Shown piece after piece: positions 16,608 through 49,710 of a stretch of 62,076 bases of DNA. A program made the position numbers and the translations under genes. The notes beneath the pieces are model-generated. The model saw only the letters and a list, made by a program, of their open reading frames with translations. It was not told where the DNA came from and did not search any database. The stretch lies in IMG/VR virus record IMGVR_UViG_3300028399_000007, positions 1 to 62,076 of that record; one strand, given 5' to 3'. Source of the DNA: a virus. Its lineage: Duplodnaviria > Caudoviricetes. How positions within the stretch are numbered: the first letter of the stretch is position 1; each line of letters opens with the position of its first letter.

Positions 16608-18128
16608 CTACCTCCTGATATATGTAAAACTATTGGCTGACACTGTATAAGTACCCATTCCAATTCCAGTATTATAGACCATGTTCTCTGATCCAACCAT
16701 CCACGTAAGATCAGGGTGTGGTATAAACGGCACAGGCGGTTGCCAAGTAATAAAATCTACTGTATGCCTGTGCCTAGCTGACAGTAACTGCATTTTATGC
16801 AGTTGTGTCAATAAAACACTGTCAGATTTTATGAGATGCTTGGCTGAACTGCTTTTTAGGTAGTGGGTTTGCCCAATATCATTGGCGTCTGATATATGAA
16901 CATGCTTGGCGCTTTTTACAGATAGATTAGCATAGTACGACAGATAAACTATATCTGCTGTATGTCTGTGCCTAGCACTGCTTATGCCCAGTTCATGTGT
17001 CTGGTTTAGCGTATTTGAATCAGCCTTGTGCAAATGCTTGGCACTTTGTATGCGCAGATCACCAAGAACCTCTATGCCTATGTTATCTGCCTTATGTAAA
17101 TGCTTGGCACTGTTTACAGAAAGATTATGTACCTGTGATATTGCATTCTGATCTGCTTTTTGTAAATGCTTGGCGCTATCATTAAACAGATTGTGAGTTT
17201 GTACTAAATCATTCTGATCTGCTTTTTGTAAATGCTTGGCGCTATTTACGCTTAACTCATGCGTCTGGTTTAGTGCATTATTATCTGCTTTTTGTAAATG
17301 CTTGGCACTAGTGACAGTTAAATTATGCGTCTGTAAAATTTTGTTGCTATCTGCTTTTTGTAAATGCTTGGCAGATTTAACATCGAGGAAAGCAGCACTG
17401 TCTCCTGCCGTAAAAGCCTCAAACGCTATTACAGTAGCGGCAAATCTGGATACAGTCGTATTTTCTGACCATTCCTGCATTTCAATAAGGCCAGATACGA
17501 TTGACGATTTATAACTTGAAACTGTCCCGCCATAGGTACCGCCAAAATCCGCTATTTCAGTTTGCGCCGACCCCTGCGCTAATGCGCCTGTAGATTTTCC
17601 AGTCCAGCTAATGCCAAAGTAATCAACCACCAACACACTAGCAACGGGGCTAGTAACAGTAGCAGACATAATTTGCGACGATGAATAATTGCTAGTATCC
17701 GCTTTTTGGACGAAGATAGATGGATCAGCCTGTTTTACATTTGTTACTTCATGGACCTGCCAAATATGCCTTTGACACGCACCGTCATTATTGACGACTA
17801 TATCAATTACTGTAGAAGCCGCCGTTGTACTTGGCAATGCGCTGCCATATACAACGTAAACATCTGAAACAGACGAATAAGGACTTTCTTCAGCACGTAT
17901 CAAAGTGCCGACTTGATTAACGCCACTACCTATGCCGCTGTTTACACCGGGCGGATCTACTTGTATTGACGCTGTACCATTGTCAGGTTGGGATGAGTTG
18001 TCTTTTGAAAGATTTGAAATGACCAACATTCTGTTGGTATTTGAGGACGATATAACTACTGGTATGGTACTGCTTACAGTACCAAAAAGATTGGACGTAC
18101 CCAGTAGCTTTACTGCTGCAAATGCCAC
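16608..18128 (-). CDS. virion protein with ~10 His-containing ~22-aa repeats
   Basis: SAKHLQKADxNxLxQxHxLxV repeats in C-terminal half. Confidence 0.75.
   Translation of the reverse strand: MAFAAVKLLGTSNLFGTVSSTIPVVISSSNTNRMLVISNLSKDNSSQPDNGTASIQVDPPGVNSGIGSGVNQVGTLIRAEESPYSSVSDVYVVYGSALPSTTAASTVIDIVVNNDGACQRHIWQVHEVTNVKQADPSIFVQKADTSNYSSSQIMSATVTSPVASVLVVDYFGISWTGKSTGALAQGSAQTEIADFGGTYGGTVSSYKSSIVSGLIEMQEWSENTTVSRFAATVIAFEAFTAGDSAAFLDVKSAKHLQKADSNKILQTHNLTVTSAKHLQKADNNALNQTHELSVNSAKHLQKADQNDLVQTHNLFNDSAKHLQKADQNAISQVHNLSVNSAKHLHKADNIGIEVLGDLRIQSAKHLHKADSNTLNQTHELGISSARHRHTADIVYLSYYANLSVKSAKHVHISDANDIGQTHYLKSSSAKHLIKSDSVLLTQLHKMQLLSARHRHTVDFITWQPPVPFIPHPDLTWMVGSENMVYNTGIGMGTYTVSANSFTYIRR
16760..17375 (-). 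repeat. 66-bp coding tandem repeat
   Basis: ATCTGCTTTTTGTAAATGCTTGGC recurs at 17151, 17217, 17283, 17349, with degenerate copies further on. Confidence 0.85.
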
Positions 18129-34595: not shown

Positions 34596-35309
34596 TTATG
34601 GAGCGTCCGGGTCAGTGTTGCACTGCCGCTGTGCTGTTGGATCAGCCATCGCCTGCTTCGGACGCCGTGAAACTTTTTTACCTTTATACATGCCTATACC
34701 CATTTCAGCTATTTTTGAAAAAGGTATCTCAGGCACCGTTAGTTTATCCCTGTATGTTTTATCAATAAAATAAATATACCGTAACTGATAGCCTTCAAGT
34801 GGTTTCCATTTACTAAATTCTTTTGACAGCATCTTATGATGGGCTTGCATCTGCTGCATAACTTCACCAGTATCAGGATCAACACGTAAAGTTTTGTTCT
34901 CTTTTATCCCGGTTAGTACAAAACCACTAGCCCTATAAATAGTCCCATCACCACATTGTGTCCCATCTGCAAAGCTAATGATCCATTTAATATGTGGATA
35001 GTGTTTTTTAATAAGTTTTATCGACACTGCAATAGCCCGGCTTTCGCTATTTTTTGGCAATTTATCACTAAACGCCATACGATTAAGTTCAATAAAGCCA
35101 TTCCATTTAGTGTCGTCAACTAATTTCACAATCAAATCTTTTCGCATAGACGGCCCATATTGCATAACACCTTCTAACCTGCCTTCCCAAAAAACACCAA
35201 AATGCAGTTGACTGTTGGGCACTACCTTGCCGCTATAATGATGCCGTCTTACAAACTTGTTTGCATCAGTTGCAGAAATAGGAACTATTTTCAAATCTTT
35301 TGCGCCCAT
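34596..35309 (-). CDS. Mom-like DNA modification protein (GNAT fold)
   Basis: HHYS, ELNRM, NSESRAI, ISFADGTQ..GTIYRASGF. Confidence 0.75.
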   Translation of the reverse strand: MGAKDLKIVPISATDANKFVRRHHYSGKVVPNSQLHFGVFWEGRLEGVMQYGPSMRKDLIVKLVDDTKWNGFIELNRMAFSDKLPKNSESRAIAVSIKLIKKHYPHIKWIISFADGTQCGDGTIYRASGFVLTGIKENKTLRVDPDTGEVMQQMQAHHKMLSKEFSKWKPLEGYQLRYIYFIDKTYRDKLTVPEIPFSKIAEMGIGMYKGKKVSRRPKQAMADPTAQRQCNTDPDAP

Positions 35310-35327: not shown

Positions 35328-35927
35328 TTAATTATCCAAATGTTTTAGATAGTTTAGACAAATTTCATATATCGCATTGCCATTTTTATTATCGTTCAAG
35401 CTATCGTCAACACCATCATCAAGAATTTTATCAATAGCATCCCTGACAACTTCCGCCTGATCACTGTGCAAAGTAAAAGTGATCTGTTCAAATTCACCCT
35501 TTCCGCCATCGTTCAAATCAGGGAAACCAGTTGAATCAACATCACCTAAAATACTTTTCAATTCATCCTCGTCAAACCCCGTAAAAACCGTATCCAGATT
35601 TCCAAGCGCATCTAATTCACCTTTCAACAAGTCCCAATCCCATTCACTGTACTCAGATGACTTGTTATCAAGAATTCTATAAGCACGCACCTTTTTAGGT
35701 GGTAAATGATCTGCAATTATTACAGGCACTTTTTCTAACCCAAGCTCCTTAGCTGCTAAATACCTCGTATGTCCCGCAATAATAACGTGTTTTTTGTCAA
35801 CAATGATAGGATTTACAAAACCATAATCCCTTATACTTCTAACAACAATTTCAACCGCACTGTCATTTTTACGCGGATTCTTAGAATATGGCTTTATCTT
35901 ATCTATCATAATCTCAACAATGTCCAC
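35328..35927 (-). CDS. ParB-like N-terminal domain protein
   Basis: PYSKNPR, GFVNPI, IIAGHTRYLAA, YRILDNK. Confidence 0.85.
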   Translation of the reverse strand: MDIVEIMIDKIKPYSKNPRKNDSAVEIVVRSIRDYGFVNPIIVDKKHVIIAGHTRYLAAKELGLEKVPVIIADHLPPKKVRAYRILDNKSSEYSEWDWDLLKGELDALGNLDTVFTGFDEDELKSILGDVDSTGFPDLNDGGKGEFEQITFTLHSDQAEVVRDAIDKILDDGVDDSLNDNKNGNAIYEICLNYLKHLDN

Positions 35928-36630
35928 AAACCATCCTCCTTACTTTTGTAAGCACAATTTCTTGAAATTGTCTTAAATTAGTACCAAAGTATCTTTTTAT
36001 ATCCTCTTTACAGCCTGCATTAACAAGTTCAAGCGTTATATTTTCAATTACTTTATGATGCTTTACACAAAGCGGTATAAGATTATCTAAGCCATTATCC
36101 TTAGTAATCCTATAAGGGACAATATGATGTACTTGTAAATTTTTTGTAGTTCCGCATAAAGCACAAAAAGGAAAATTACTAATTACAGAATCACGTATTG
36201 ATTTCCACCGACTACCATAATTTCTAGTTCTCTTAGTATCACATAACCATTCATTATAGCATTTGCGACAACAAAAATTTCCAGAACTGTTTGTTTTACC
36301 TGTCAACCTGCTTTTTTGTACATAAAATTCAGATTTACAATTTTTACATTGTCTTAAAACTTTTTTCATTTCATTAAATTTTTTATAACAATCCTTATTG
36401 CAAAAATTTCTTGCATTTATTTGTTTTTTGTATCTTTCGTTTAATTTACCGCAATACATACAATTAAAAGTGACAAACTCTGCCCGTCTAGGTTTTGGGG
36501 CCTTGCCTCCTATAGAACTTGAACAATGTTTGCATCTAAGAGGATTAGAATCCTTGCGCACATATCTTGATTGACCACAGTCAATACAAACTACCTTCTT
36601 TACCCAACCATCAGGCATATAATCCTCCAA
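35914..36630 (-). CDS. HNH endonuclease with multiple Zn-binding repeats
   Basis: CALCG..LQVHHIVP..NLIPLCVKHH plus CxxC/FCxxxC repeats. Confidence 0.85.
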   Translation of the reverse strand: MEDYMPDGWVKKVVCIDCGQSRYVRKDSNPLRCKHCSSSIGGKAPKPRRAEFVTFNCMYCGKLNERYKKQINARNFCNKDCYKKFNEMKKVLRQCKNCKSEFYVQKSRLTGKTNSSGNFCCRKCYNEWLCDTKRTRNYGSRWKSIRDSVISNFPFCALCGTTKNLQVHHIVPYRITKDNGLDNLIPLCVKHHKVIENITLELVNAGCKEDIKRYFGTNLRQFQEIVLTKVRRMVCGHC

Positions 36631-36746
36631 CTTGTCACAACGCCTGCGCCAAGTATGGCACCTGCCCCTGCCCGTTGCCTACCCGTGACAATAACGCCCC
36701 ACAACGGCTGTCAGGCGGCCTGACGGGCTGTGCCGCAGCCACGAAA

Positions 36747-37140
36747 AATCAATGACTTACAAGCGTCACCAGTTAAAAACCGTCACCCATTTAATCACCC
36801 AATTTTTTTGTCGTAACGTACTGAAAAATATAGTTAATCACCCAGTCACCCGTTTTATACTAAATAAAAAATATATAAAAAATAGGGGATAGGGATAGTA
36901 GGGGATCCCTGATCCTCGTCTATATTAAAGTTTGTGCTGTTTTTGGGAAAAAAGGGTGACAGCCGCAACACTATGAATTAAAAAGCAAAATACGATTTTT
37001 CAAAAATGCGTGGCACCCGAAAAACGGGTGCCAAATGGCCAAAAGTGTGAAAAAGTGGGTTTTCGGCCATTTTGGCCATACTGCTAGAAAAAATCTAGTT
37101 TGGCGTTTTTTCACACTTTGCCAAAAAAAATTGGTGACAA
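36747..37140. other. divergent noncoding control region (candidate origin or packaging site)
   Basis: IHF-type site 36747-36759, repeated TCACCC/GGTGAC, AT-rich tract, inverted repeats. Confidence 0.45.
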
Positions 37141-37141
37141 G

Positions 37142-37170
37142 TTGCAAGCCAATTTGAATCGCGCTATGGT
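37142..37170 (+). promoter_or_regulatory. sigma70-type promoter
   Basis: TTGCAA-N17-TATGGT. Confidence 0.5.
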
Positions 37171-37176
37171 TGCACC

Positions 37177-37310
37177 CATGGGCTAGTTACAACACATGGT
37201 TTGGTTTACAATAGGTTTTGTAGCACCAACCATCTGTTGACTAGCCCTCGCAGTATGTGCTGTGCTATGAAAAGCCCCTTGCACCTACTGTGTGCTTGGG
37301 GCTTTTTTTA
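37177..37310 (+). ncRNA. candidate sRNA or attenuated leader of primase
   Basis: ~70-nt hairpin GGGCTAGTTA..TGACTAGCCC, then terminator AAGCCCC..GGGGCTTTTTTT. Confidence 0.45.
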
Positions 37311-37323
37311 TGGGGATTGGTTT

Positions 37324-39432
37324 ATGGGGTTTGGATCAGAAACGGAACCTGCCGCGCCAACGAAGCGCGAGATCCAACAATTTCAAAAAGCCATGCGCGA
37401 TGATCTGGCCCGTAGTGGTCTGATCGCATCCCATCTCAAAAAACTTCGCTATGAAGTTCTAACCCCGCAAGACTCACTATCTGAATTTGATTGGCCTAAC
37501 TGGTCATACCGTATCCCTTACATCGATCCAATCACAGGGGAAGATACAGGGTACCATCGCTATCGTTTCATGGAGGAGGTGGCTAATAGCAAGGGGAAAA
37601 TCGTCAAGTACATGCAACGCAGCGGTACAACACCGAGGCTTTATTTCCCACCTGTCTATACTCCAAAAAAATGGGCAACAATACTAAATGATCCAAGCCA
37701 ATTTATTGTGTTCACAGAAGGCGAGAAGAAAGCCGCTAAAGCCTGCGTGGAAGGATTGCCTACTATTGCCCTAGGTGGTGTATCATCATTTAGCTGCAAA
37801 CGATTAGGGCAACGGTTAATAGATGACTTCAAACTGATCACGCTAAAGGATCGCCGCGTTGAAATTTGTTTTGATTCAGATTTCCGCACCAATGAAGATG
37901 TGATGCGGGAACTGCGGCGATTTGCCAAGGAACTCTATCGCGAAGGTGCGGTAGTCCTGTTCCGCTGGTTACCTGACGACTATGACAAAATCGGCTTGGA
38001 CGATTTTTTTGCCGCTGGTGCGCAGTTGACAGATTATGAACAACTGCCCTTTGACGCTTATGAACAATGCAAGGAAGTATTGGAACTCAACAACGAGCTA
38101 GCCTATATAAAAAACGTAAACGCATTTTATAATATAAAAACAGGGACGTGGTACAAAACTAAACCCGCCTTGGTGGATATGGGGTATGCCAACCGCGTTA
38201 TCATCGATCCTGAGACAGATCGTGAGCATAACGTCGCTGCCTTATGGTTAAAATCCAAGATGCGCCGCACCCATAAAAGGCTGGTATATGAACCGATGCC
38301 AATCTATGAGCCGTTTGAATTCCCGTTGATAACAGACGACAATGAATTGAACTTGTGGCGTGGTTGGGGCGCTTACCCTGAGCCGGGCAACTTGGATGAT
38401 TTCAACAGGCTATTGGATTACGTGTTCGGTGATGATCCGGATCAACGTGAAAATTTTTTGAAGTGGGCGGCATACCCGATCCAGTATCCGGGCACCAAAC
38501 TGACCACATCCTTTATGATCCAGAGCCCGTTACAGGGATCGGGCAAAAGTTCACTAGGGTTAATACTAGGTGATATATACGGCGGTAATTTCAGTAACGT
38601 AGATGCAGGCAGTCTATTTGAAAGTTTTAACTCATGGGCACGTAACAAGCAGTTTGTACTGGGTGATGAGATCACAGCGGATGCGTTCAATAAAAGACGT
38701 AGCTCAGATAAGATAAAGAACATGATCACGCGCGAAACGATCAGCATAAACGAAAAATACAAGCCCATTTACGAAGTAAAAGACTGTATCAATTACCTGT
38801 TAACGTCCAACCACCCCGATGCGCTGTACTTGGAGGAGTTTGACCGGCGCTTTTATGTGCATACCATCATGGCAAAATCCGTCCCGCCCAATTTAGGCAA
38901 ATGGGTAGATCGTTTCCGGTTTGGCAATGGTCAAAAAGGCCGATCCGCACTGATGCATTACCTGTTAACCGAAGTCGATGTATCTGATTTCAACCCCAAG
39001 GGCGAGGCCAAGGATTCATTTTCCAAGGAAATGATGCGCGAAGCGGGGCGGTCCGATCTGGAACAATGGGCTTGGCAACTGGCTAATGATCCTGACGCGG
39101 CGCTGCACATAACCGGCAAGACGTTTGATCGGGATATTTATACAACGGCGCAATTGCTAAAGATATACGATCCTTTGGGTAAAAAGAACGTGACGCTGCA
39201 TGCGCTTGGCAAGGCGCTGAAAAAATACCAGTTATTCTACAAACAAATCAGGTTTGATAACGGTAAACGCGAAAAATTGATCCCTATACGCAACAGGGAC
39301 AAGTGGATGAAATGCAAGTCCGCTAAATGGGCCGAACATTATGAACAATCCAAGGTCCATGATCTTGATACACGGCGCACGCCGATCAATGAGAAAAACG
39401 GGAATAAAAACAAGAAAAAAGATCAGACATAG
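37324..39432 (+). CDS. primase-helicase (DUF3854/TOPRIM-like plus SF3-type helicase)
   Basis: TEGEKKA, FDSD, GLDD; QGSGKS, FVLGDE, LLTSNH, DRRF. Confidence 0.88.
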   Translation: MGFGSETEPAAPTKREIQQFQKAMRDDLARSGLIASHLKKLRYEVLTPQDSLSEFDWPNWSYRIPYIDPITGEDTGYHRYRFMEEVANSKGKIVKYMQRSGTTPRLYFPPVYTPKKWATILNDPSQFIVFTEGEKKAAKACVEGLPTIALGGVSSFSCKRLGQRLIDDFKLITLKDRRVEICFDSDFRTNEDVMRELRRFAKELYREGAVVLFRWLPDDYDKIGLDDFFAAGAQLTDYEQLPFDAYEQCKEVLELNNELAYIKNVNAFYNIKTGTWYKTKPALVDMGYANRVIIDPETDREHNVAALWLKSKMRRTHKRLVYEPMPIYEPFEFPLITDDNELNLWRGWGAYPEPGNLDDFNRLLDYVFGDDPDQRENFLKWAAYPIQYPGTKLTTSFMIQSPLQGSGKSSLGLILGDIYGGNFSNVDAGSLFESFNSWARNKQFVLGDEITADAFNKRRSSDKIKNMITRETISINEKYKPIYEVKDCINYLLTSNHPDALYLEEFDRRFYVHTIMAKSVPPNLGKWVDRFRFGNGQKGRSALMHYLLTEVDVSDFNPKGEAKDSFSKEMMREAGRSDLEQWAWQLANDPDAALHITGKTFDRDIYTTAQLLKIYDPLGKKNVTLHALGKALKKYQLFYKQIRFDNGKREKLIPIRNRDKWMKCKSAKWAEHYEQSKVHDLDTRRTPINEKNGNKNKKKDQT

Positions 39433-39877
39433 TATTTGATATTATCACCTATTAAGATCGTGCCATGTAGTGAGAAAGTAACGTCAGGATCGAGCGATCC
39501 ACTTTGCCGAATGTGCCAATAAGCGGGAGTGAGACAGGTCCGTTGACAGGGACAAAGAAATGTATCGAGACAAGCCGATTTATAGTAACAGTGGTGATGA
39601 TCGAACCATGTTCTATTATAGTGACACGCCACGAGATTGAGACACCCTTATTGTCAGTAACACTAACTGTGATCGAAACACCTATGCGCAGCGTACCATC
39701 GAGGTGGATTGAAACATAATTAACGATAGTAACATGCTGCTTGATTGAAACGGAGTACATAACAGTAACACGGTGCTTGATTGAAACACTGTACACGATA
39801 GCAACACGTTGGTTGATTGAGACACGTCCTTTGATAGTTCGGATACTGAGATCGACCCATACACTTTGACAGTAGCA
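39421..39877 (+). repeat. TIGR-like dual-repeat array 1 (~12 units of 36 nt)
   Basis: Alternating GATYGARACA and GAYAGTRACA 10-mers separated by variable 8-nt spacers, 18-nt phase. Confidence 0.85.
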
Positions 39878-39900
39878 AAGCAACAGAGGAATTTTGAGAT

Positions 39901-40125
39901 ATGCACGTTGATCCCATAATTGACCAACACGCGCCAGATTGCCTGTTAGTGCAGTTCCACGCGATCTGTTGCAAGTGGGAGAAGTGCGTTTATTTCGGAA
40001 CTAGGAAAGAAAAAGCCGGGTATTATCGTGAATTGAAGCAGTTCTATAAAAAACACGGATTGCCTGATGACACGATAGCCCCGCCTTGCAATTGTGGTAG
40101 AAAAATATGCTATCTATTAACTTGA
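39901..40125 (+). CDS. small Cys/His-rich protein between arrays
   Basis: ORF with six Cys in CxxxxHxxCCxxxxC and CxC clusters. Confidence 0.4.
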   Translation: MHVDPIIDQHAPDCLLVQFHAICCKWEKCVYFGTRKEKAGYYRELKQFYKKHGLPDDTIAPPCNCGRKICYLLT

Positions 40126-40138
40126 AAGAGGTACCAAG

Positions 40139-40492
40139 ATGCGTAGAAAAAAGAATGCCGAGACTGCGGAAAGTACGTTATTTTCAGAAACACAAACGCG
40201 AACCGTTTACACTGTGGAGATCAAGAACCCGTACAACGTGTGGGAGGACGTGAGGAACCCCAGCTATATGGTGCCTGTGATCCCCAGTAGCGTTGCATCC
40301 TGTAATGACAACCACCCGCTGATGAAGCATCACAGGATGTTGACCTATGATCAGGCCATGGCGATAGCATGGTCGATCAAGTCGCAAAACGAGCCTTCTG
40401 TGCGCGGCGTGCGGATCGTGGGCTATGAAATGGAATGGTCCGTCAAGGCCAATAGTGCGCCGGTCTATGAGCAGGAGATCGGCGGAGACTAG
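40139..40492 (+). CDS. hypothetical protein between arrays
   Basis: AGAGG RBS. Confidence 0.65.
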   Translation: MRRKKNAETAESTLFSETQTRTVYTVEIKNPYNVWEDVRNPSYMVPVIPSSVASCNDNHPLMKHHRMLTYDQAMAIAWSIKSQNEPSVRGVRIVGYEMEWSVKANSAPVYEQEIGGD

Positions 40493-40498
40493 GCTAAT

Positions 40499-40885
40499 GA
40501 TCAGGCAGGGTGTCTGAGTGTACCGGAACAGATAATCGAGTCGCGAAGATGTATGGTAACAATGGCAATGATCGAGGCAAAAAAAGATAGCGTGCCGTTG
40601 AATATGATCGAGCCTTTGAAAGCGATTGGAACACGTGAATTGAGCTAAACAACCGTTTAGATAGTGACACAGTTTATGATTGAAACAGGTGCCCCGATAA
40701 CGACAGGCGCGAAGATTGAAACAAAAAATCCGATAGCATCACAATCCCGAATTGAAACGCAGAAAGATAGTGCACCACCGAATACGATTGAAACAGTGGA
40801 AAAGACAGTATCAGAAACGACGATTGAGACAAAAAGGCAAATTGCACCACTATCGCTGATCGAACCACCACCAGTTATTGCAACG
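40499..40885 (+). repeat. TIGR-like dual-repeat array 2 (~11 units of 36 nt)
   Basis: Same alternating repeats (GATTGAAACA at 40678, 40714, 40786; GATAGTGACA at 40660) with 8-nt spacers. Confidence 0.85.
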
Positions 40886-40904
40886 GATATGGGGAGTGCT
40901 ATTT

Positions 40905-41282
40905 ATGGGTTATGGGTACATCGGCCAACCGTACAGCCATGAGGATGAGGCGGTGCGGCAGAATCGCTATGAGTTTGCATTGTCATTTGTGGCTGCCAAG
41001 ACACGTGCCGGGGAGATAGTCTATTCCCCTATCGTGCACTTCCACAATGCGGCTGTAGAACACAACCTGCCGGAAGGTGGGGCGATCTGGCGGCCTGTGA
41101 ACAGGGCTATGCTATTGGCCGCCAACAGGTTAATCGTGTTGGCCCTGCCCGGCTGGTCCTGCTCGCCGGGGCTTGAGTTTGAGATGAAGCTGGCGCGTGA
41201 GCACAGGATCCCGATCAAGTACGTGATCCCTGATCACAAGATGCAGACCCAGCTAGGCGTGGAACTGATCACATTTGATTAA
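40905..41282 (+). CDS. DUF1937-like / nucleoside deoxyribosyltransferase-like protein
   Basis: YIGQPYSH, VYSPIVHFH, LPGW..SPG..E. Confidence 0.7.
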   Translation: MGYGYIGQPYSHEDEAVRQNRYEFALSFVAAKTRAGEIVYSPIVHFHNAAVEHNLPEGGAIWRPVNRAMLLAANRLIVLALPGWSCSPGLEFEMKLAREHRIPIKYVIPDHKMQTQLGVELITFD

Positions 41283-41473
41283 CCCTTGTCAAATGGATCA
41301 GCATCGACCGTTTCAAGCGCCAGCGCCTCAACCTGCTTGGCATAATCCAGCATTTCCTCAATAGCATCCACGTCGCTGTAGTAAGCCGTTTCCTCGTCCA
41401 GCACAGTGCTGGCATGCGCCTTGATTTCCTGTGCCAGCTTGGCAATGGCTTTGATATGTTGTGTTGATCTCAT
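41279..41473 (-). CDS. hypothetical protein
   Basis: Part of coupled minus-strand early cassette. Confidence 0.6.
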   Translation of the reverse strand: MRSTQHIKAIAKLAQEIKAHASTVLDEETAYYSDVDAIEEMLDYAKQVEALALETVDADPFDKG

Positions 41474-41700
41474 CGGCCTGTCCCCATTACAACAACATAG
41501 ACCCCGCTATGATCGCGATCTTGAAACACCTGCAAAACACGGCGACCCTTGAGAGTGCGTGCAATTGCATCGGGCGGGGTTTCAAGTATGTCGTATCGTC
41601 CGCGTAAAAATCCACGTACATAAGATATAACAGTATCCCACATGCTAGCCTCATATTCACCAACTTCTATGTTGTTGACATACGTCTTTACCTTGTACAT
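41470..41700 (-). CDS. hypothetical protein
   Basis: Part of minus-strand early cassette. Confidence 0.6.
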   Translation of the reverse strand: MYKVKTYVNNIEVGEYEASMWDTVISYVRGFLRGRYDILETPPDAIARTLKGRRVLQVFQDRDHSGVYVVVMGTGR

Positions 41701-41712
41701 TTCAATACCCTG

Positions 41713-41901
41713 TTATTCAATGATTGCGATTGAAAGGATCTTGTAATCCTGTTTACCGACCGGCGCGGTGATCACGGACTGCTCGATAAATGCCTTGGTG
41801 TAAAACTGCGCATCACTTGGCATGGCATTGTGGATAACGTCATATTCGATGGATCCGGTACCGTTGCCCGTAAGGATCTCTTTTTCAATATGGATTTCCA
41901 T
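41713..41901 (-). CDS. hypothetical protein
   Basis: GAGGA RBS; CsrA-type hairpin at 41921-41938. Confidence 0.6.
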   Translation of the reverse strand: MEIHIEKEILTGNGTGSIEYDVIHNAMPSDAQFYTKAFIEQSVITAPVGKQDYKILSIAIIE

Positions 41902-41945
41902 GATATGTCCTCTATGTTAGTGCGCCGTCCTTAGCGCGATAGTCA

Positions 41946-42350
41946 TTACAGCCCCCACTTGGCATCAGTGTAGCCGGGCAACATCGTGATGAAGCGATCC
42001 TTGATCTTGTTCATCAGTTTATAGGCCCGTGAGTTTTCATAATTCTTGGTTTCACAGGATTGGTAATCGAGGCACTGGACCAGTTTTAGAAGTTCAACAG
42101 CACCCATCTTGGGCACGCGACGGAATTTAAGATCATCCTCAGTGATCACCACCCGTTCATAGCCGCCAAAATACTCCTCAGCGCGTCCGGGGTAGCGTGC
42201 GCACACACTGGCATAATTCTGATCCGTCAGAACATCTGACAGGTAGTTTGCCGTTTGCAGGGGATCAGGGTACTCACCTTGCAAGCCCATGTTGATATAG
42301 TTGACGACGATTGCCTTGATCGTCATGTCCGTAACAATAAATGCGCTCAT
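41946..42350 (-). CDS. conserved phage hypothetical protein
   Basis: Start-associated motif; MSAFIV..N..SV.ARY..CLDYQSCE..W pattern. Confidence 0.75.
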   Translation of the reverse strand: MSAFIVTDMTIKAIVVNYINMGLQGEYPDPLQTANYLSDVLTDQNYASVCARYPGRAEEYFGGYERVVITEDDLKFRRVPKMGAVELLKLVQCLDYQSCETKNYENSRAYKLMNKIKDRFITMLPGYTDAKWGL

Positions 42351-48635: not shown

Positions 48636-48896
48636 ATGCAAATGACAAAATACACTGATCTAAAACCGCCTTTTGATCCACGTTTGGACGTGGATTCACA
48701 ACGATATGTTGTTTATAACGTGGAAGAAAAACGTGTCATGCGTAGTACGCAAGATATTTCACAAGCCGTGCGCATTTGTGTGCGGCTAAATGGTGACAAG
48801 GAAATCGCTGAATACGCCATTGCCGACAAGGATGCAAATACTTACCTTAGTGGCTGGCGCAAATTGCGGGAGGTGAAAAATGACTACAGCCAATGA
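48636..48896 (+). CDS. hypothetical protein
   Basis: Overlaps start of next gene. Confidence 0.6.
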   Translation: MQMTKYTDLKPPFDPRLDVDSQRYVVYNVEEKRVMRSTQDISQAVRICVRLNGDKEIAEYAIADKDANTYLSGWRKLREVKNDYSQ

Positions 48897-49710
48897 ACTA
48901 GAAAGTGCCAGCCGGATCGCCAATAGCACGATCAAGCAAATCAAGGAACGCGGTACTTGTAGCCGTGAAGAAATCCGGTTCCTTGTGGATGCCTATTACC
49001 AAGTACAAAAGATGCGGATCGCACTGGGTAATCAGATATTTGCATTGACTGAATCCAATGAACCGCATGAGATCAGTGACTGGCTGTTCAGCCAGTTCAA
49101 ACTGATCGAAAGCCAGATCAGCCGATCCCTGAAAGCATTTTGTGAGACCACAAAGCCCGGTCAATGGCTATTGTCAATCACGGGCATAGGCCCTGTGTTG
49201 GCGGCCAATTTTCTTGCCCATCTTGACGTGACAAAATCAGAAACAGCGGGCGGATTCTGGCGGTTCGCCGGGTTGGATCCAACACTGGAATGGAAGAAAG
49301 GTTGTAAGCGTCCGTTTAACGCGCGGCTTAAAACGGCTTGTTGGAAAGCGGGTGAATCATTTTGCAAGGTACAGAACCGTGATTCGGACGTTTACGGCAA
49401 GGTCTATGCTGAGCGTAAGGCACTGGAAATACAACGCAATGACAGGCTTGAATTTGCCGATCAGGCGAAGGAAAAACTGGAGAAGTTTAACATCGGCAAG
49501 GACACGGATGCCTACAAGCATTATGCTGAGGGTAAGCTGCCGCCTGCGCATATCGACCAGCGTGCCAAGCGTTATGCGGTTAAGCTATTCCTGTCACATC
49601 TGCATCATGTAATGTATGAATGCGAGCATGGGCGCAAACCACCCAAACCCTACGTCATAGAACACATGGGGCATGCGCATTACGTCGCCCCGCCAAACTG
49701 GCCATTGTAA
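48880..49710 (+). CDS. TasA-like Nop-domain RNA-binding protein (IS110 C-terminal-like, no nuclease domain)
   Basis: LVDAYYQVQKMRI..NQ, WLLSITGIGPVLAA, FWRFAGL, FNARLK, HIDQRAKRYAVKLFLSHL; no RuvC/DEDD or HNH domain. Confidence 0.8.
   Translation: MTTANELESASRIANSTIKQIKERGTCSREEIRFLVDAYYQVQKMRIALGNQIFALTESNEPHEISDWLFSQFKLIESQISRSLKAFCETTKPGQWLLSITGIGPVLAANFLAHLDVTKSETAGGFWRFAGLDPTLEWKKGCKRPFNARLKTACWKAGESFCKVQNRDSDVYGKVYAERKALEIQRNDRLEFADQAKEKLEKFNIGKDTDAYKHYAEGKLPPAHIDQRAKRYAVKLFLSHLHHVMYECEHGRKPPKPYVIEHMGHAHYVAPPNWPL

What the first reader, a model, noticed from the sequence alone, without database searches (positions are those of the whole stretch)
40499..40885. Second TIGR-like array with the same repeats and different spacers
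Seen: ~22 half-units in 18-nt phase (GATAGTGACA-cagtttat-GATTGAAACA-ggtgcccc-GATAACGACA-ggcgcgaa-GATTGAAACA-aaaaatcc...). Both arrays open with a 9-nt GATCAGRCA (39421, 40499) at or just after a stop codon, and their 5' repeats are more degenerate than the later ones. Inference: a split array, with polarity that may record how units are added. I know of no established acquisition mechanism for such arrays.
Basis: partly seen in the sequence, partly recalled or inferred. Interest (0 to 1): 0.85.

Follow-up and report, generated by a model that had tools for sequence, protein, structure and literature searches.

The report
Second phage TIGR guide-RNA array
This is a real but partly worn guide-RNA (TIGR) array of a phage that also encodes the matching nuclease-free protein TasA; the kind has been known since 2025, and the interest lies in the hints it gives about how such arrays grow.

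Summary
Positions 40499-40903 carry 23 half-units in 18-nt register, with a 10-nt repeat and an 8-nt spacer each. The periodicity is far beyond chance (0 of 1000 shuffles).

The repeats alternate between GATTGAAACA (edge) and GATAGTAACA (loop). In three other viral contigs the same two repeats form textbook TIGR arrays directly behind a tasA gene.

The window has its own tasA at 48880-49710. It matches TaTasR and SpTasH by profile (E 3e-24 and 2e-13), keeps the Y/H processing dyad and has the Tas fold. So this is a dual-repeat TIGR-TasA system.

Four features are unusual:
- Both arrays lie 8-9.5 kb upstream of tasA, in another operon.
- Two small genes separate them.
- They are the most degenerate of the 29 arrays compared. 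Only 3 (perhaps 5) of 11 units in array 2 look canonical.
- Both arrays show the same 5'-to-3' gradient of repeat variants (P=0.005).

A simple split of one array is not supported. Unit duplication followed by divergence is seen. Related phages shuffle units without CRISPR-like order. No targets, RNA data or close relatives were found.

Verdict: a new member of a known kind.

The parts
40499..40903 (+). TIGR array 2 (the finding). Edge-type positions: 40499 (9 nt), 40534, 40570, 40606, 40642, 40678, 40714, 40750, 40786, 40822, 40858, and 40894 (truncated, GAGTG). Loop-type positions: 40516, 40552, 40588, 40624, 40660, 40696, 40732, 40768, 40804, 40840, 40876. Spacers are 8 nt. The well-formed core is 40642-40867.
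   Evidence: The array fills the whole intergenic gap between the TAG at 40490-40492 and the ATG at 40905.
39420..39842 (+). TIGR array 1. It has the same two repeats in about 24 half-units, with one 17-nt step at 39492. Its last three units (39707, 39743, 39779) are a diverged tandem triplication.
   Evidence: (period 36, 3.3 copies).
39901..40125 (+). Small ORF (74 aa) between the two arrays, preceded by a ribosome-binding site. No family match.
40139..40492 (+). Small ORF (117 aa) between the two arrays. No family match, and no relatives in viral or metagenome contigs.
48880..49710 (+). tasA: a 276-aa Tas protein with a Nop domain and no nuclease domain. It is the only tas gene in the window. 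Y258 and H265 align with the SpTasH processing dyad Y289 and H296.
37201..39432 (+). Primase/helicase-like gene (DUF3854 + DUF5906). Its last codons overlap the first repeat of array 1.
40905..41282 (+). DUF1937 gene (similar to nucleoside 2-deoxyribosyltransferase). Its ribosome-binding site and start codon lie in the last degenerate half-units of array 2.

Best explanation
Array 2 is a genuine dual-repeat TIGR array of a phage TIGR-TasA system.

Anatomy: the 36-nt unit is edge repeat GATTGAAACA, an 8-nt spacer A, loop repeat GATAGTAACA, and an 8-nt spacer B.

Shown:
- The array structure is real.
- The same repeats form canonical arrays beside tasA in other phages.
- An intact TasA with the processing dyad is encoded in the same genome.

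Inferred:
- The array has no promoter or terminator of its own. It is transcribed on the + strand as part of the primase - array 1 - orf74 - orf117 - array 2 - DUF1937 message.
- TasA, made from a separate operon 8 kb downstream, cuts within the edge repeats and releases 36-nt tigRNAs.
[quoted passage not shown] TasA has no nuclease, so it binds and blocks, for example by repressing transcription, rather than cutting.
- Only about 3 to 5 of the 11 units still have edge-loop-edge repeats within the range of well-kept arrays, so the array is probably only partly active.
- The worn units at the 5' end, which use an older repeat dialect, and the cleaner 3' units are best read as older and younger units. 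The array would change by duplication of 36-nt units, point mutation of spacers, and repeat-mediated recombination.

I put the identity as a TIGR array, active or not, at about 0.93. The confidence given here is for 'at least partly active'.
For: Periodicity is beyond chance.

An exact-pattern scan with the window's two repeats found 3 viral loci. In each, the same repeats form an array that starts at the stop codon of a tasA gene:
- L038: 28 units, ending in a truncated GATTG.
- L037 and L039: the same 12 units, ending in GATTG plus a hairpin and T-run terminator.
- These arrays fix the strand and show which repeat is the edge. Their TasA proteins are 53% and 51% identical to the window's.

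The window's TasA:
- phmmer against PDB chains: E 1.9e-14 to 9MTY (TaTasR) and E 2.1e-8 to SpTasH.
- Profile of 14 homologues: E 3.1e-24 and E 2e-13. Y258 and H265 align with SpTasH Y289 and H296, and H265 is invariant in 14 of 14 sequences.
- Model: pLDDT 87, pTM 0.84. The 10 best PDB fold matches are all TasH or TasR chains (E 1e-7 to 5e-6).
- phrog_4285, E 1.5e-50.

Context: 55 of 82 TasA-homologue loci have an array-like periodicity within 470 nt downstream of tasA, and 9 more have one just upstream.

No coding signal on either strand: stop counts match a column-preserving null, and no ORF spans the array.

Repeat quality: 8 of 12 edge positions and 4 of 11 loop positions reach the score range of the reference arrays, and 18 of 23 exceed the 99th percentile of background.

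Published function: TasA as an RNA-guided repressor (Xu et al. 2026 preprint, section read); dual-strand targeting and 36-nt processing (Faure 2025, sections read).
Against: - No RNA data exist for this DNA.
- The array is not next to tasA. About 8 kb and several minus-strand ORFs lie between them, unlike 64 of 82 homologue loci.
- It is the most degenerate of the 29 arrays compared: 2.78 mismatches per repeat, against 0.24-2.49 in the 27 arrays from other loci.
- 5 of 11 loop repeats score far below any loop in the reference arrays.
- No terminator follows it, although Faure 2025 describes one as typical.
- Pfam's Nop model PF01798 finds nothing in the window even at E<=10.
- No DNA target was found. 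Matches within the window are at background level: 25 with up to 3 mismatches, against a mean of 26 for mispaired control spacers.
- The repeat cognate for this particular TasA is inferred from homologues only 51-53% identical.
Confidence: 0.65

Rival explanations
1. Relic array. Both arrays are decaying leftovers of a TIGR array that no longer supplies guides. Either TasA in this phage works with guides from elsewhere (the record is only about 76% complete) or it is itself on the way out.
For: - The window's arrays have the highest mismatch load of the 29 arrays compared.
- Only 3 units of array 2 are fully canonical.
- The arrays are remote from tasA and no array lies next to it.
- CheckV completeness is 76%, so another array could lie off the record.
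Against: - The 18-nt register is kept without a single indel over 22 positions. Neutral decay would be expected to break it.
- GA...CA ends are kept at 67%.
- tasA is an intact full-length ORF with the invariant residues of its family.
- Array 1 contains a triplication whose repeats are near-perfect.
- The 'worn' repeats resemble the GAGCGAGCCA-type repeats used by most of the clade, and such variants also occur inside the long L038 array. They may therefore still be bound.
Confidence: 0.25
2. Iterons of a replication origin. The 18-bp-phased direct repeats just downstream of the primase/helicase gene are binding sites for a replication initiator, not guide RNAs.
For: - The arrays sit directly after a primase/helicase-like gene.
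- Direct repeats in a fixed register with A-rich stretches are typical of phage origins. This point rests on my own knowledge, not on a call.
Against: - The same two alternating repeats make canonical TIGR arrays behind tasA in phages that share no other gene with this window.
- The two repeat types alternate with a 36-nt unit.
- The sequence between repeats is fully variable.
- A cognate TasA is present.
Confidence: 0.03
3. Coding repeat. The array is part of a protein-coding gene with a 6-residue repeat, either in the + frame reading IET...IVT or in the antisense frame.
For: - The + ORF 40664-40942 and the antisense ORFs 40494-40670 and 40674-40871 cover most of the array.
- Antisense ORFs also span the arrays of L038 and L039.
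Against: - No frame is open across the whole array.
- In array 1 the same + frame is stopped by TAA at 39717-39719, read from the sequence.
- Stop counts in all six frames fit a null that keeps each spacer column's composition: for array 2, 1 observed against 2.3 expected in the open + frame, P=0.26. The repeats themselves contain no stops in those frames.
Confidence: 0.02

Closest known systems
Dual-repeat TIGR-TasA systems (for example FpTIGR of Flavonifractor plautii; Faure et al. 2025, PMC12045711; sections read)
   Same: - Two alternating short repeats (edge and loop) with short spacers and a 36-nt unit.
- Both repeats begin and end with matching box D and box C motifs.
- The protein is a Nop-domain protein without a nuclease.
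- The system is carried by a phage.
   Different: - Spacers are 8 nt, not 9.
- The boxes read GA...ACA, not UG...CCA.
- The arrays are 8-9.5 kb from tasA, in a different operon.
- No terminator follows them.
- The repeats are unusually degenerate and mix two dialects.
SpTIGR-TasH of Salicola phage CGphi29 (Faure 2025; PMC13421893, passages read)
   Same: - The two spacers together give 16 nt of guide.
- The tigRNA is 36 nt.
- The Y/H processing dyad aligns (Y289/H296 with Y258/H265).
- It gives the best fold matches.
   Different: SpTasH has an N-terminal HNH nuclease. The window's protein aligns only from SpTasH residue 68 onward and has about 30-40 residues before that stretch, so it should bind DNA and not cut it.
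TIGR loci with genes between arrays: tasParB-tasA operons (Faure 2025 methods) and a stem-loop array in three sub-arrays (Faure 2025)
   Same: Arrays lie upstream of, downstream of and between genes of one transcription unit. In relatives such as L013, L038 and L006, stop codons are built into the first repeat.
   Different: - The genes between the arrays here are two small ORFs of unknown family, not parB.
- The window's ParB-like gene (35328-35927, minus strand) is not in an operon with tasA.
CRISPR arrays
   Same: Both are repeat-spacer arrays that encode guide RNAs.
   Different: - The repeats here are 10 nt and of two alternating types, and spacers are 8 nt.
- No cas genes were seen among the ORFs scanned.
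- Related phages shuffle unit order, so there is no leader-end chronology.

Membership tests
TIGR-Tas, dual-repeat type | Two distinct alternating 8-12-nt repeats separated by short (8-12 nt) spacers, repeated in tandem with a unit of about 36 nt | tested here: met
   10 + 8 + 10 + 8 nt. There are 22 positions in strict 18-nt register. Identity at lags 18 and 36 is beyond 1000 of 1000 shuffles.
TIGR-Tas, dual-repeat type | Both repeat types start with the same box D and end with the same box C motif, covarying between edge and loop | tested here: met
   In reference arrays with the same repeats, positions 1-2 (GA) are 88-94% conserved and positions 9-10 (CA) 86-96% conserved, in both repeat types. 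In array 2, 67% of the repeat ends keep GA and CA.
TIGR-Tas, dual-repeat type | A Tas protein with a Nop domain is encoded with the array | tested here: met
   The protein at 48880-49710 matches TaTasR (E 3.1e-24) and SpTasH (E 2e-13) by profile. The top 10 fold matches are TasH or TasR chains. However, it lies 7,976 nt downstream of the array, and Pfam PF01798 does not detect it.
TIGR-Tas, dual-repeat type | The array lies directly upstream or downstream of tas (typical, not strictly defining) | tested here: not met
   No array is next to tasA. By contrast, 64 of 82 homologue loci have one within about 0.5 kb. Remote arrays also occur in L031, whose TasA has the best-matching segment (64% identical).
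TIGR-Tas, dual-repeat type | [quoted passage not shown] | tested here: inconclusive
   The array opens with a 9-nt edge-like repeat and ends with GAGTG at an edge position. No terminator-like site follows; the next gene starts there instead, as in L038.
TIGR-Tas, dual-repeat type | C-terminal Y/H processing dyad of Tas proteins that bind dual-repeat arrays | tested here: met
   Y258 and H265 align with SpTasH Y289 and H296. H265 is invariant in 14 of 14 homologues. The role of H296 comes from a passage of PMC13421893, and the Y/H dyad from the Xu 2026 preprint, section 10.
TIGR-Tas, dual-repeat type | The array is transcribed and processed into 36-nt tigRNAs bound by Tas | not testable with these tools
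   No RNA run is listed for this DNA. The one DNA run holds a single identical contig.
TIGR-Tas, dual-repeat type | Spacer pairs match adjacent stretches on opposite strands of a DNA target | tested here: inconclusive
   Tested only within the window: 25 matches with up to 3 mismatches, against a mean of 26 for mispaired controls. A 16-nt guide is too short for database-wide searches.
CRISPR array | A single repeat of about 23-50 nt with spacers of similar length, usually with cas genes | tested here: not met
   The repeats are 10 nt and of two types, and spacers are 8 nt. No Cas family appeared among the 20 neighbouring ORFs scanned. The repeat-length range is recalled, apart from the 25-36 nt quoted in Faure 2025.

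The most novel reading that the evidence does not exclude
TIGR arrays may need no spacer-acquisition machinery. They could grow by duplicating whole 36-nt units, mostly towards the 3' end, and make 'new' guides by point mutation of the copied spacers. Repeat-mediated recombination would then shuffle units within and between phages.

On this reading the window's two arrays are caught in the act:
- Old units in an older repeat dialect sit at the 5' end.
- A diverged triplication sits at the 3' end of array 1.
- Paralogous units lie inside array 2.

Because the arrays sit inside a replication-gene message, TasA cutting at the edge repeats would also split that message.
Probability: 0.3. Interest if true: 0.65.

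Novelty: new member of a known kind. Interest (0 to 1): 0.38.

Why it matters
TIGR-Tas systems were described in 2025. The two groups whose papers I read both call the origin of TIGR spacers an open question.

This locus is an ordinary member in kind, but it and its relatives give testable hints on that question:
- Units within one array are sometimes diverged copies of each other. This was significant in 4 of 25 arrays.
- One relative, L026, shows diverged copies of three consecutive units four units further on.
- Five related phages carry the same units in different orders.

The locus also shows that a tasA gene with no array beside it can have its arrays several kb away in another operon. 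That matters for reports of 'array-less' Tas proteins.

Tried and rejected
**Close relatives of this phage, sought to see units gained or lost. None found.**
- blastn of 37200-42000 against the phage collection: no match.
- The 117-aa ORF in viral and metagenome contigs: none.
- The primase-like gene: one locus at 27% identity.
- TasA in viral and metagenome contigs: best 59-65% identity.

**RNA evidence.** No RNA holder is listed. Laying the single DNA run gave one identical contig, probably the source, with no variants or joints.

**Self-targets of the 22 spacer pairs.** Both strand geometries gave matches at background level. I did not run database-wide target searches, because a 16-mer is expected hundreds of times by chance in those collections.

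**Family searches.**
- Rfam: no family in 39300-41000 at E<=1.
- Pfam Nop PF01798 in the window: nothing.

**Promoter and terminator scan of 36500-42000.** Nothing beyond shuffles and no terminator after either array.

**Whole-array duplication.** Spacers show no positional homology between arrays 1 and 2.

**Homology of the opening 9-mer to the GATCAG at the tasA 3' end in L006 and L026.** There it codes for K-I-S-P. The 9-mer also occurs 4 more times in the window, inside genes and without extended similarity, and GATC itself is twice as frequent as expected. I read the 9-mer as the GATCGAGNCA edge variant minus one base.

**Synteny with relatives.** Only TasA is shared with L001, L031, L038 and L039. 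The 746-aa ORF of L039 is unrelated to the window's 743-aa ORF.

**Not seen.** Supplementary tables and figures of Faure 2025 (table S1, fig. S4) and the TIGRSafari resource. They may already list this contig.

Full report
**What is there**

The window is a 62-kb viral record, about 76% complete by CheckV. The gap between the TAG at 40490-40492 and the ATG at 40905 is filled completely by short repeats. A 9-mer, GATCAGGCA, sits at 40499. After a 17-nt step, 22 ten-mers follow at exact 18-nt intervals from 40516 to 40894. They alternate between GATTGAAACA-like and GATAGTAACA-like forms, with 8 variable bases between them, which gives a 36-nt unit.

The periodicity is far beyond chance:
- Identity at lag 18 is 0.430, and at lag 36 it is 0.470. 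In 1000 dinucleotide shuffles these are 0.27 +/- 0.02, with largest values 0.335 and 0.349.
- GA...CA repeat ends occur at 0.67, against 0.18 +/- 0.03.
- The weak 5' half alone is reached by 0-2 of 1000 shuffles.
- Only one other place in the window behaves like this, array 1 at 39420-39842. Of the 57 plus-strand matches to GATTGAAACA with up to 2 mismatches, 17 lie in the two arrays. None of the 48 minus-strand matches does.

Tandem Repeats Finder reported only part of array 1. A simple lag-36 scan at a 0.55 threshold missed array 2.

**What it is**

An exact-pattern scan of viral contigs with the two repeats found three loci. In each, the same two repeats form a long, clean array that starts at the stop codon of a gene.
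- L038 has 28 units and ends in a truncated GATTG directly before the next gene.
- L037 and L039 hold one and the same array of 12 units. It ends in GATTG followed by a hairpin and a run of T.

Faure et al. [quoted passage not shown] This makes GATTGAAACA the edge, GATAGTAACA the loop, and the + strand the RNA strand.

The gene in front of those arrays encodes a homologue of the window's ORF 48880-49710, at 53% and 51% identity. That 276-aa protein has these properties:
- It matches the PDB chains of TaTasR (9MTY, which Faure 2025 names as the TasR RNP model) at E 1.9e-14, and of SpTasH at E 2.1e-8.
- A profile of 14 homologues raises this to E 3.1e-24 and E 2e-13, followed by IS621 and ISCro4 recombinases.
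- The alignment to TasR starts at TasR residue 116-123 and to TasH at residue 68-98. The window's protein therefore lacks their N-terminal nuclease and is of the TasA type.
- Y258 and H265 align with SpTasH Y289 and H296. A passage of PMC13421893 calls H296A catalytically inactive for pre-tigRNA processing. The Xu et al. [quoted passage not shown] H265 is invariant in 14 of 14 aligned homologues.
- An AlphaFold model (pLDDT 87, pTM 0.84) has TasH and TasR chains as its ten best PDB matches (E 1.2e-7 to 4.7e-6, query TM 0.53-0.61), then IS110-family recombinases.
- PHROGs files it under phrog_4285, 'transposase' (E 1.5e-50).
- Pfam's Nop model does not see it, and Pfam gives only a weak PF02371 match.

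**How this locus differs from the usual**

1. *Position.* Among 82 distinct TasA-homologue loci with at least 250 nt of downstream sequence, 55 show array-like periodicity within 470 nt downstream of tasA and 9 more just upstream. Eighteen show none at that threshold. The window belongs to that minority. Nothing array-like lies next to tasA. The arrays lie 7,976 nt (array 2 end) to about 9,460 nt (array 1 start) upstream, and minus-strand ORFs lie between them and tasA. L031 is organised in a similar way. Its TasA has the best-matching segment (64% identity), and its arrays lie 9-10 kb from tasA and are interrupted by an 84-aa ORF whose stop codon is built into a repeat. The Xu 2026 preprint took up to 10 kb on each side of tas (passage), so such arrays are within reach of their pipeline.

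2. *Embedding.* Array 1 begins inside the last codons of a primase/helicase-like gene. Array 2 begins 7 nt after orf117 and runs into the ribosome-binding site and ATG of a DUF1937 gene. No terminator-like site follows either array, and no promoter-like excess was found. Co-transcription with these genes is the simplest reading, but it is inferred.

3. *Wear.* The window's arrays carry 2.19 (array 1) and 2.78 (array 2) mismatches per repeat to their consensus. The 27 arrays of other loci carry 0.24-2.49. I built position-weight matrices from the L038 and L037 arrays. By these, 8 of 12 edge positions and 4 of 11 loop positions of array 2 reach the lowest score seen in those reference arrays, and 18 of 23 positions exceed the 99th percentile of background. 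Three units have edge, loop and edge all in range (starting at 40642, 40714 and 40786). Two more are borderline (40606 and 40678).

   The poor repeats are not random. TAGTGCACCA, AATTGCACCA, TATTGCAACG, TAGCGTGCCG and GAGTGTACCG resemble each other. They also resemble the GAGCGAGCCA, GAGAGCACCA and GAGTGAACCG repeats used by most of the clade. Variants such as GATTGAGCCA and GAGCGAAACA occur inside the long L038 array. The strict register, without one indel in 22 steps, argues against free decay.

**Polarity and how the arrays change**

- In array 1, degeneracy falls from 5' to 3' (rho -0.44, p=0.022).
- In array 2, the edges go from GATCAGGCA, AATCGAGTCG, GATCGAGGCA and GATCGAGCCT to GATTGAAACA, but several 3' loops are poor, so the mismatch trend is flat (rho -0.06).
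- The order of repeat variants is correlated between the two arrays: 7.0 of 10 identities at equal index, against 6.33 +/- 0.23 when order is permuted within type (P=0.005). The spacers are unrelated: 2.09 of 8 against 1.99 (P=0.38).

A plain split of one array by insertion of the two ORFs is not supported. Each array has its own edge-type opening. Array 1 ends in a broken loop repeat (GATAGTTCGG) that has no counterpart at the start of array 2.

There is evidence for duplication of units.
- The last three units of array 1 share 8-11 of 16 spacer positions with each other: summed identity is 28, against a null mean of 16.7, reached by 0 of 5000 permutations.
- Array 2 has two non-adjacent unit pairs with at least 10 of 16 identities (0.15 expected, P=0.006). 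One pair (40570 and 40750) also shares the odd TAG...CC loop variant.
- Array 2 shows no adjacent duplicates (P=0.53).

Across 25 arrays tested, 4 show such excess similarity within the array: L006, L007, L026 and window array 2 (P<=0.014). The other 21 do not. L026 has three consecutive units with diverged copies four units downstream.

Among five distinct arrays of closely related phages (L013=L028, L016=L018, L017=L019, L021, L022), 14 unit families are shared, but in different orders. For example, D-E-F in one array appears as F-L-E-D in two others. The spacers differ by point changes, and both ends vary.

5' bias of degeneracy is significant in 5 of 27 relatives' arrays (L026, L035b, L035c, L037, L031). 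One array, L007, shows the opposite; there the walk ran past the array end.

Together this favours duplication, mutation and recombination of 36-nt cassettes over an ordered, CRISPR-like addition at one end. The gradient in this window is compatible with older units at the 5' end. This is inference from few arrays and no close relatives. Both papers whose discussions I read state that the source of TIGR spacers is unknown. A full-text search for 'TIGR array' together with 'spacer acquisition' or 'duplication' listed no paper on this point among its 20 rows.

**Function**

By homology, TasA should process the transcript at the edge repeats into 36-nt tigRNAs and bind 16-bp DNA sites, one spacer per strand, without cutting. 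This rests on three sources:
- Faure 2025, sections read.
- The abstract of the Guan et al. preprint, seen in the outline.
- Xu 2026, section 12, which shows RNA-guided repression by another TasA.

None of this was tested here. The 22 spacer pairs have no better matches inside the window than mispaired controls: 25 against a mean of 26 with up to 3 mismatches, and 1 against 1.75 with up to 2. No RNA run holds this DNA.

**Rivals**

- *Coding repeat, unlikely.* No ORF spans the array, and stop counts fit a composition-preserving null in all six frames.
- *Origin iterons, unlikely.* The same repeats occur behind tasA in phages that share no other gene with this one.
- *Non-functional relic.* This cannot be excluded, and I give it about a quarter.

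**Verdict**

This is a real TIGR array of a phage TIGR-TasA system, and a new member of a known kind. It has an uncommon layout (remote, in two blocks, inside a replication operon) and unusual wear.

This scan has reported TIGR-TasA loci on other DNA before. Those reports include genes between arrays, stop codons built into edge repeats, and 'array-less' TasA genes. The present case suggests looking further afield for arrays in the array-less cases.

Noticed in passing
L013, L016, L017, L021, L022 (arrays just downstream of tasA): Five closely related phages carry 14 shared tigRNA unit families in different orders, with point differences in the spacers and variation at both array ends. Variant bases in the repeats travel with their spacers. 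This points to cassette shuffling by repeat-mediated recombination.
   Followed up: partly
L026:1075-1330: Units 14, 15 and 16 of this 27-unit array each resemble units 18, 19 and 20 (10-11 of 16 spacer positions). This looks like a diverged duplication of a multi-unit block. L006 and L007 also have an excess of similar unit pairs.
   Followed up: partly
L031:19960-20996: This locus has the TasA with the best-matching segment to the window's (64% identical). Its arrays (GAATGAATCA / GAAAGTATCA) lie 9-10 kb downstream of tasA and are interrupted by an 84-aa ORF whose stop codon lies in a repeat. Its TasA ORF is 370 aa, so it carries an insertion.
   Followed up: partly
window:30328-33873 (-): This 1181-aa ORF combines terminase large-subunit, LAGLIDADG homing-endonuclease and intein-splicing domains. 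It appears to be a terminase gene carrying an intein.
   Followed up: no
window, whole: GATC occurs 513 times where about 242 are expected. GATCAGRCA occurs 6 times where 0.78 is expected, and 4 of those lie inside genes away from the arrays. A Mom-family gene (34596-35309, minus strand) and a ParB-N-like gene are present. A link to DNA modification was not examined.
   Followed up: no
window:59670-60485 (+): Long 15-, 30-, 45- and 90-nt periodic repeats lie inside a 271-aa ORF. The 15-nt period suggests a 5-residue repeat, probably a pentapeptide-repeat protein; that name is my recollection and was not tested. A separate 66-nt repeat (4.4 copies) lies at 17085-17372.
   Followed up: no
window:35914-36630 (-): A 238-aa protein with a zinc ribbon and an HNH domain lies next to the ParB-like gene. 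It has no similarity to TasH beyond the HNH motif, and no Nop part was found.
   Followed up: partly
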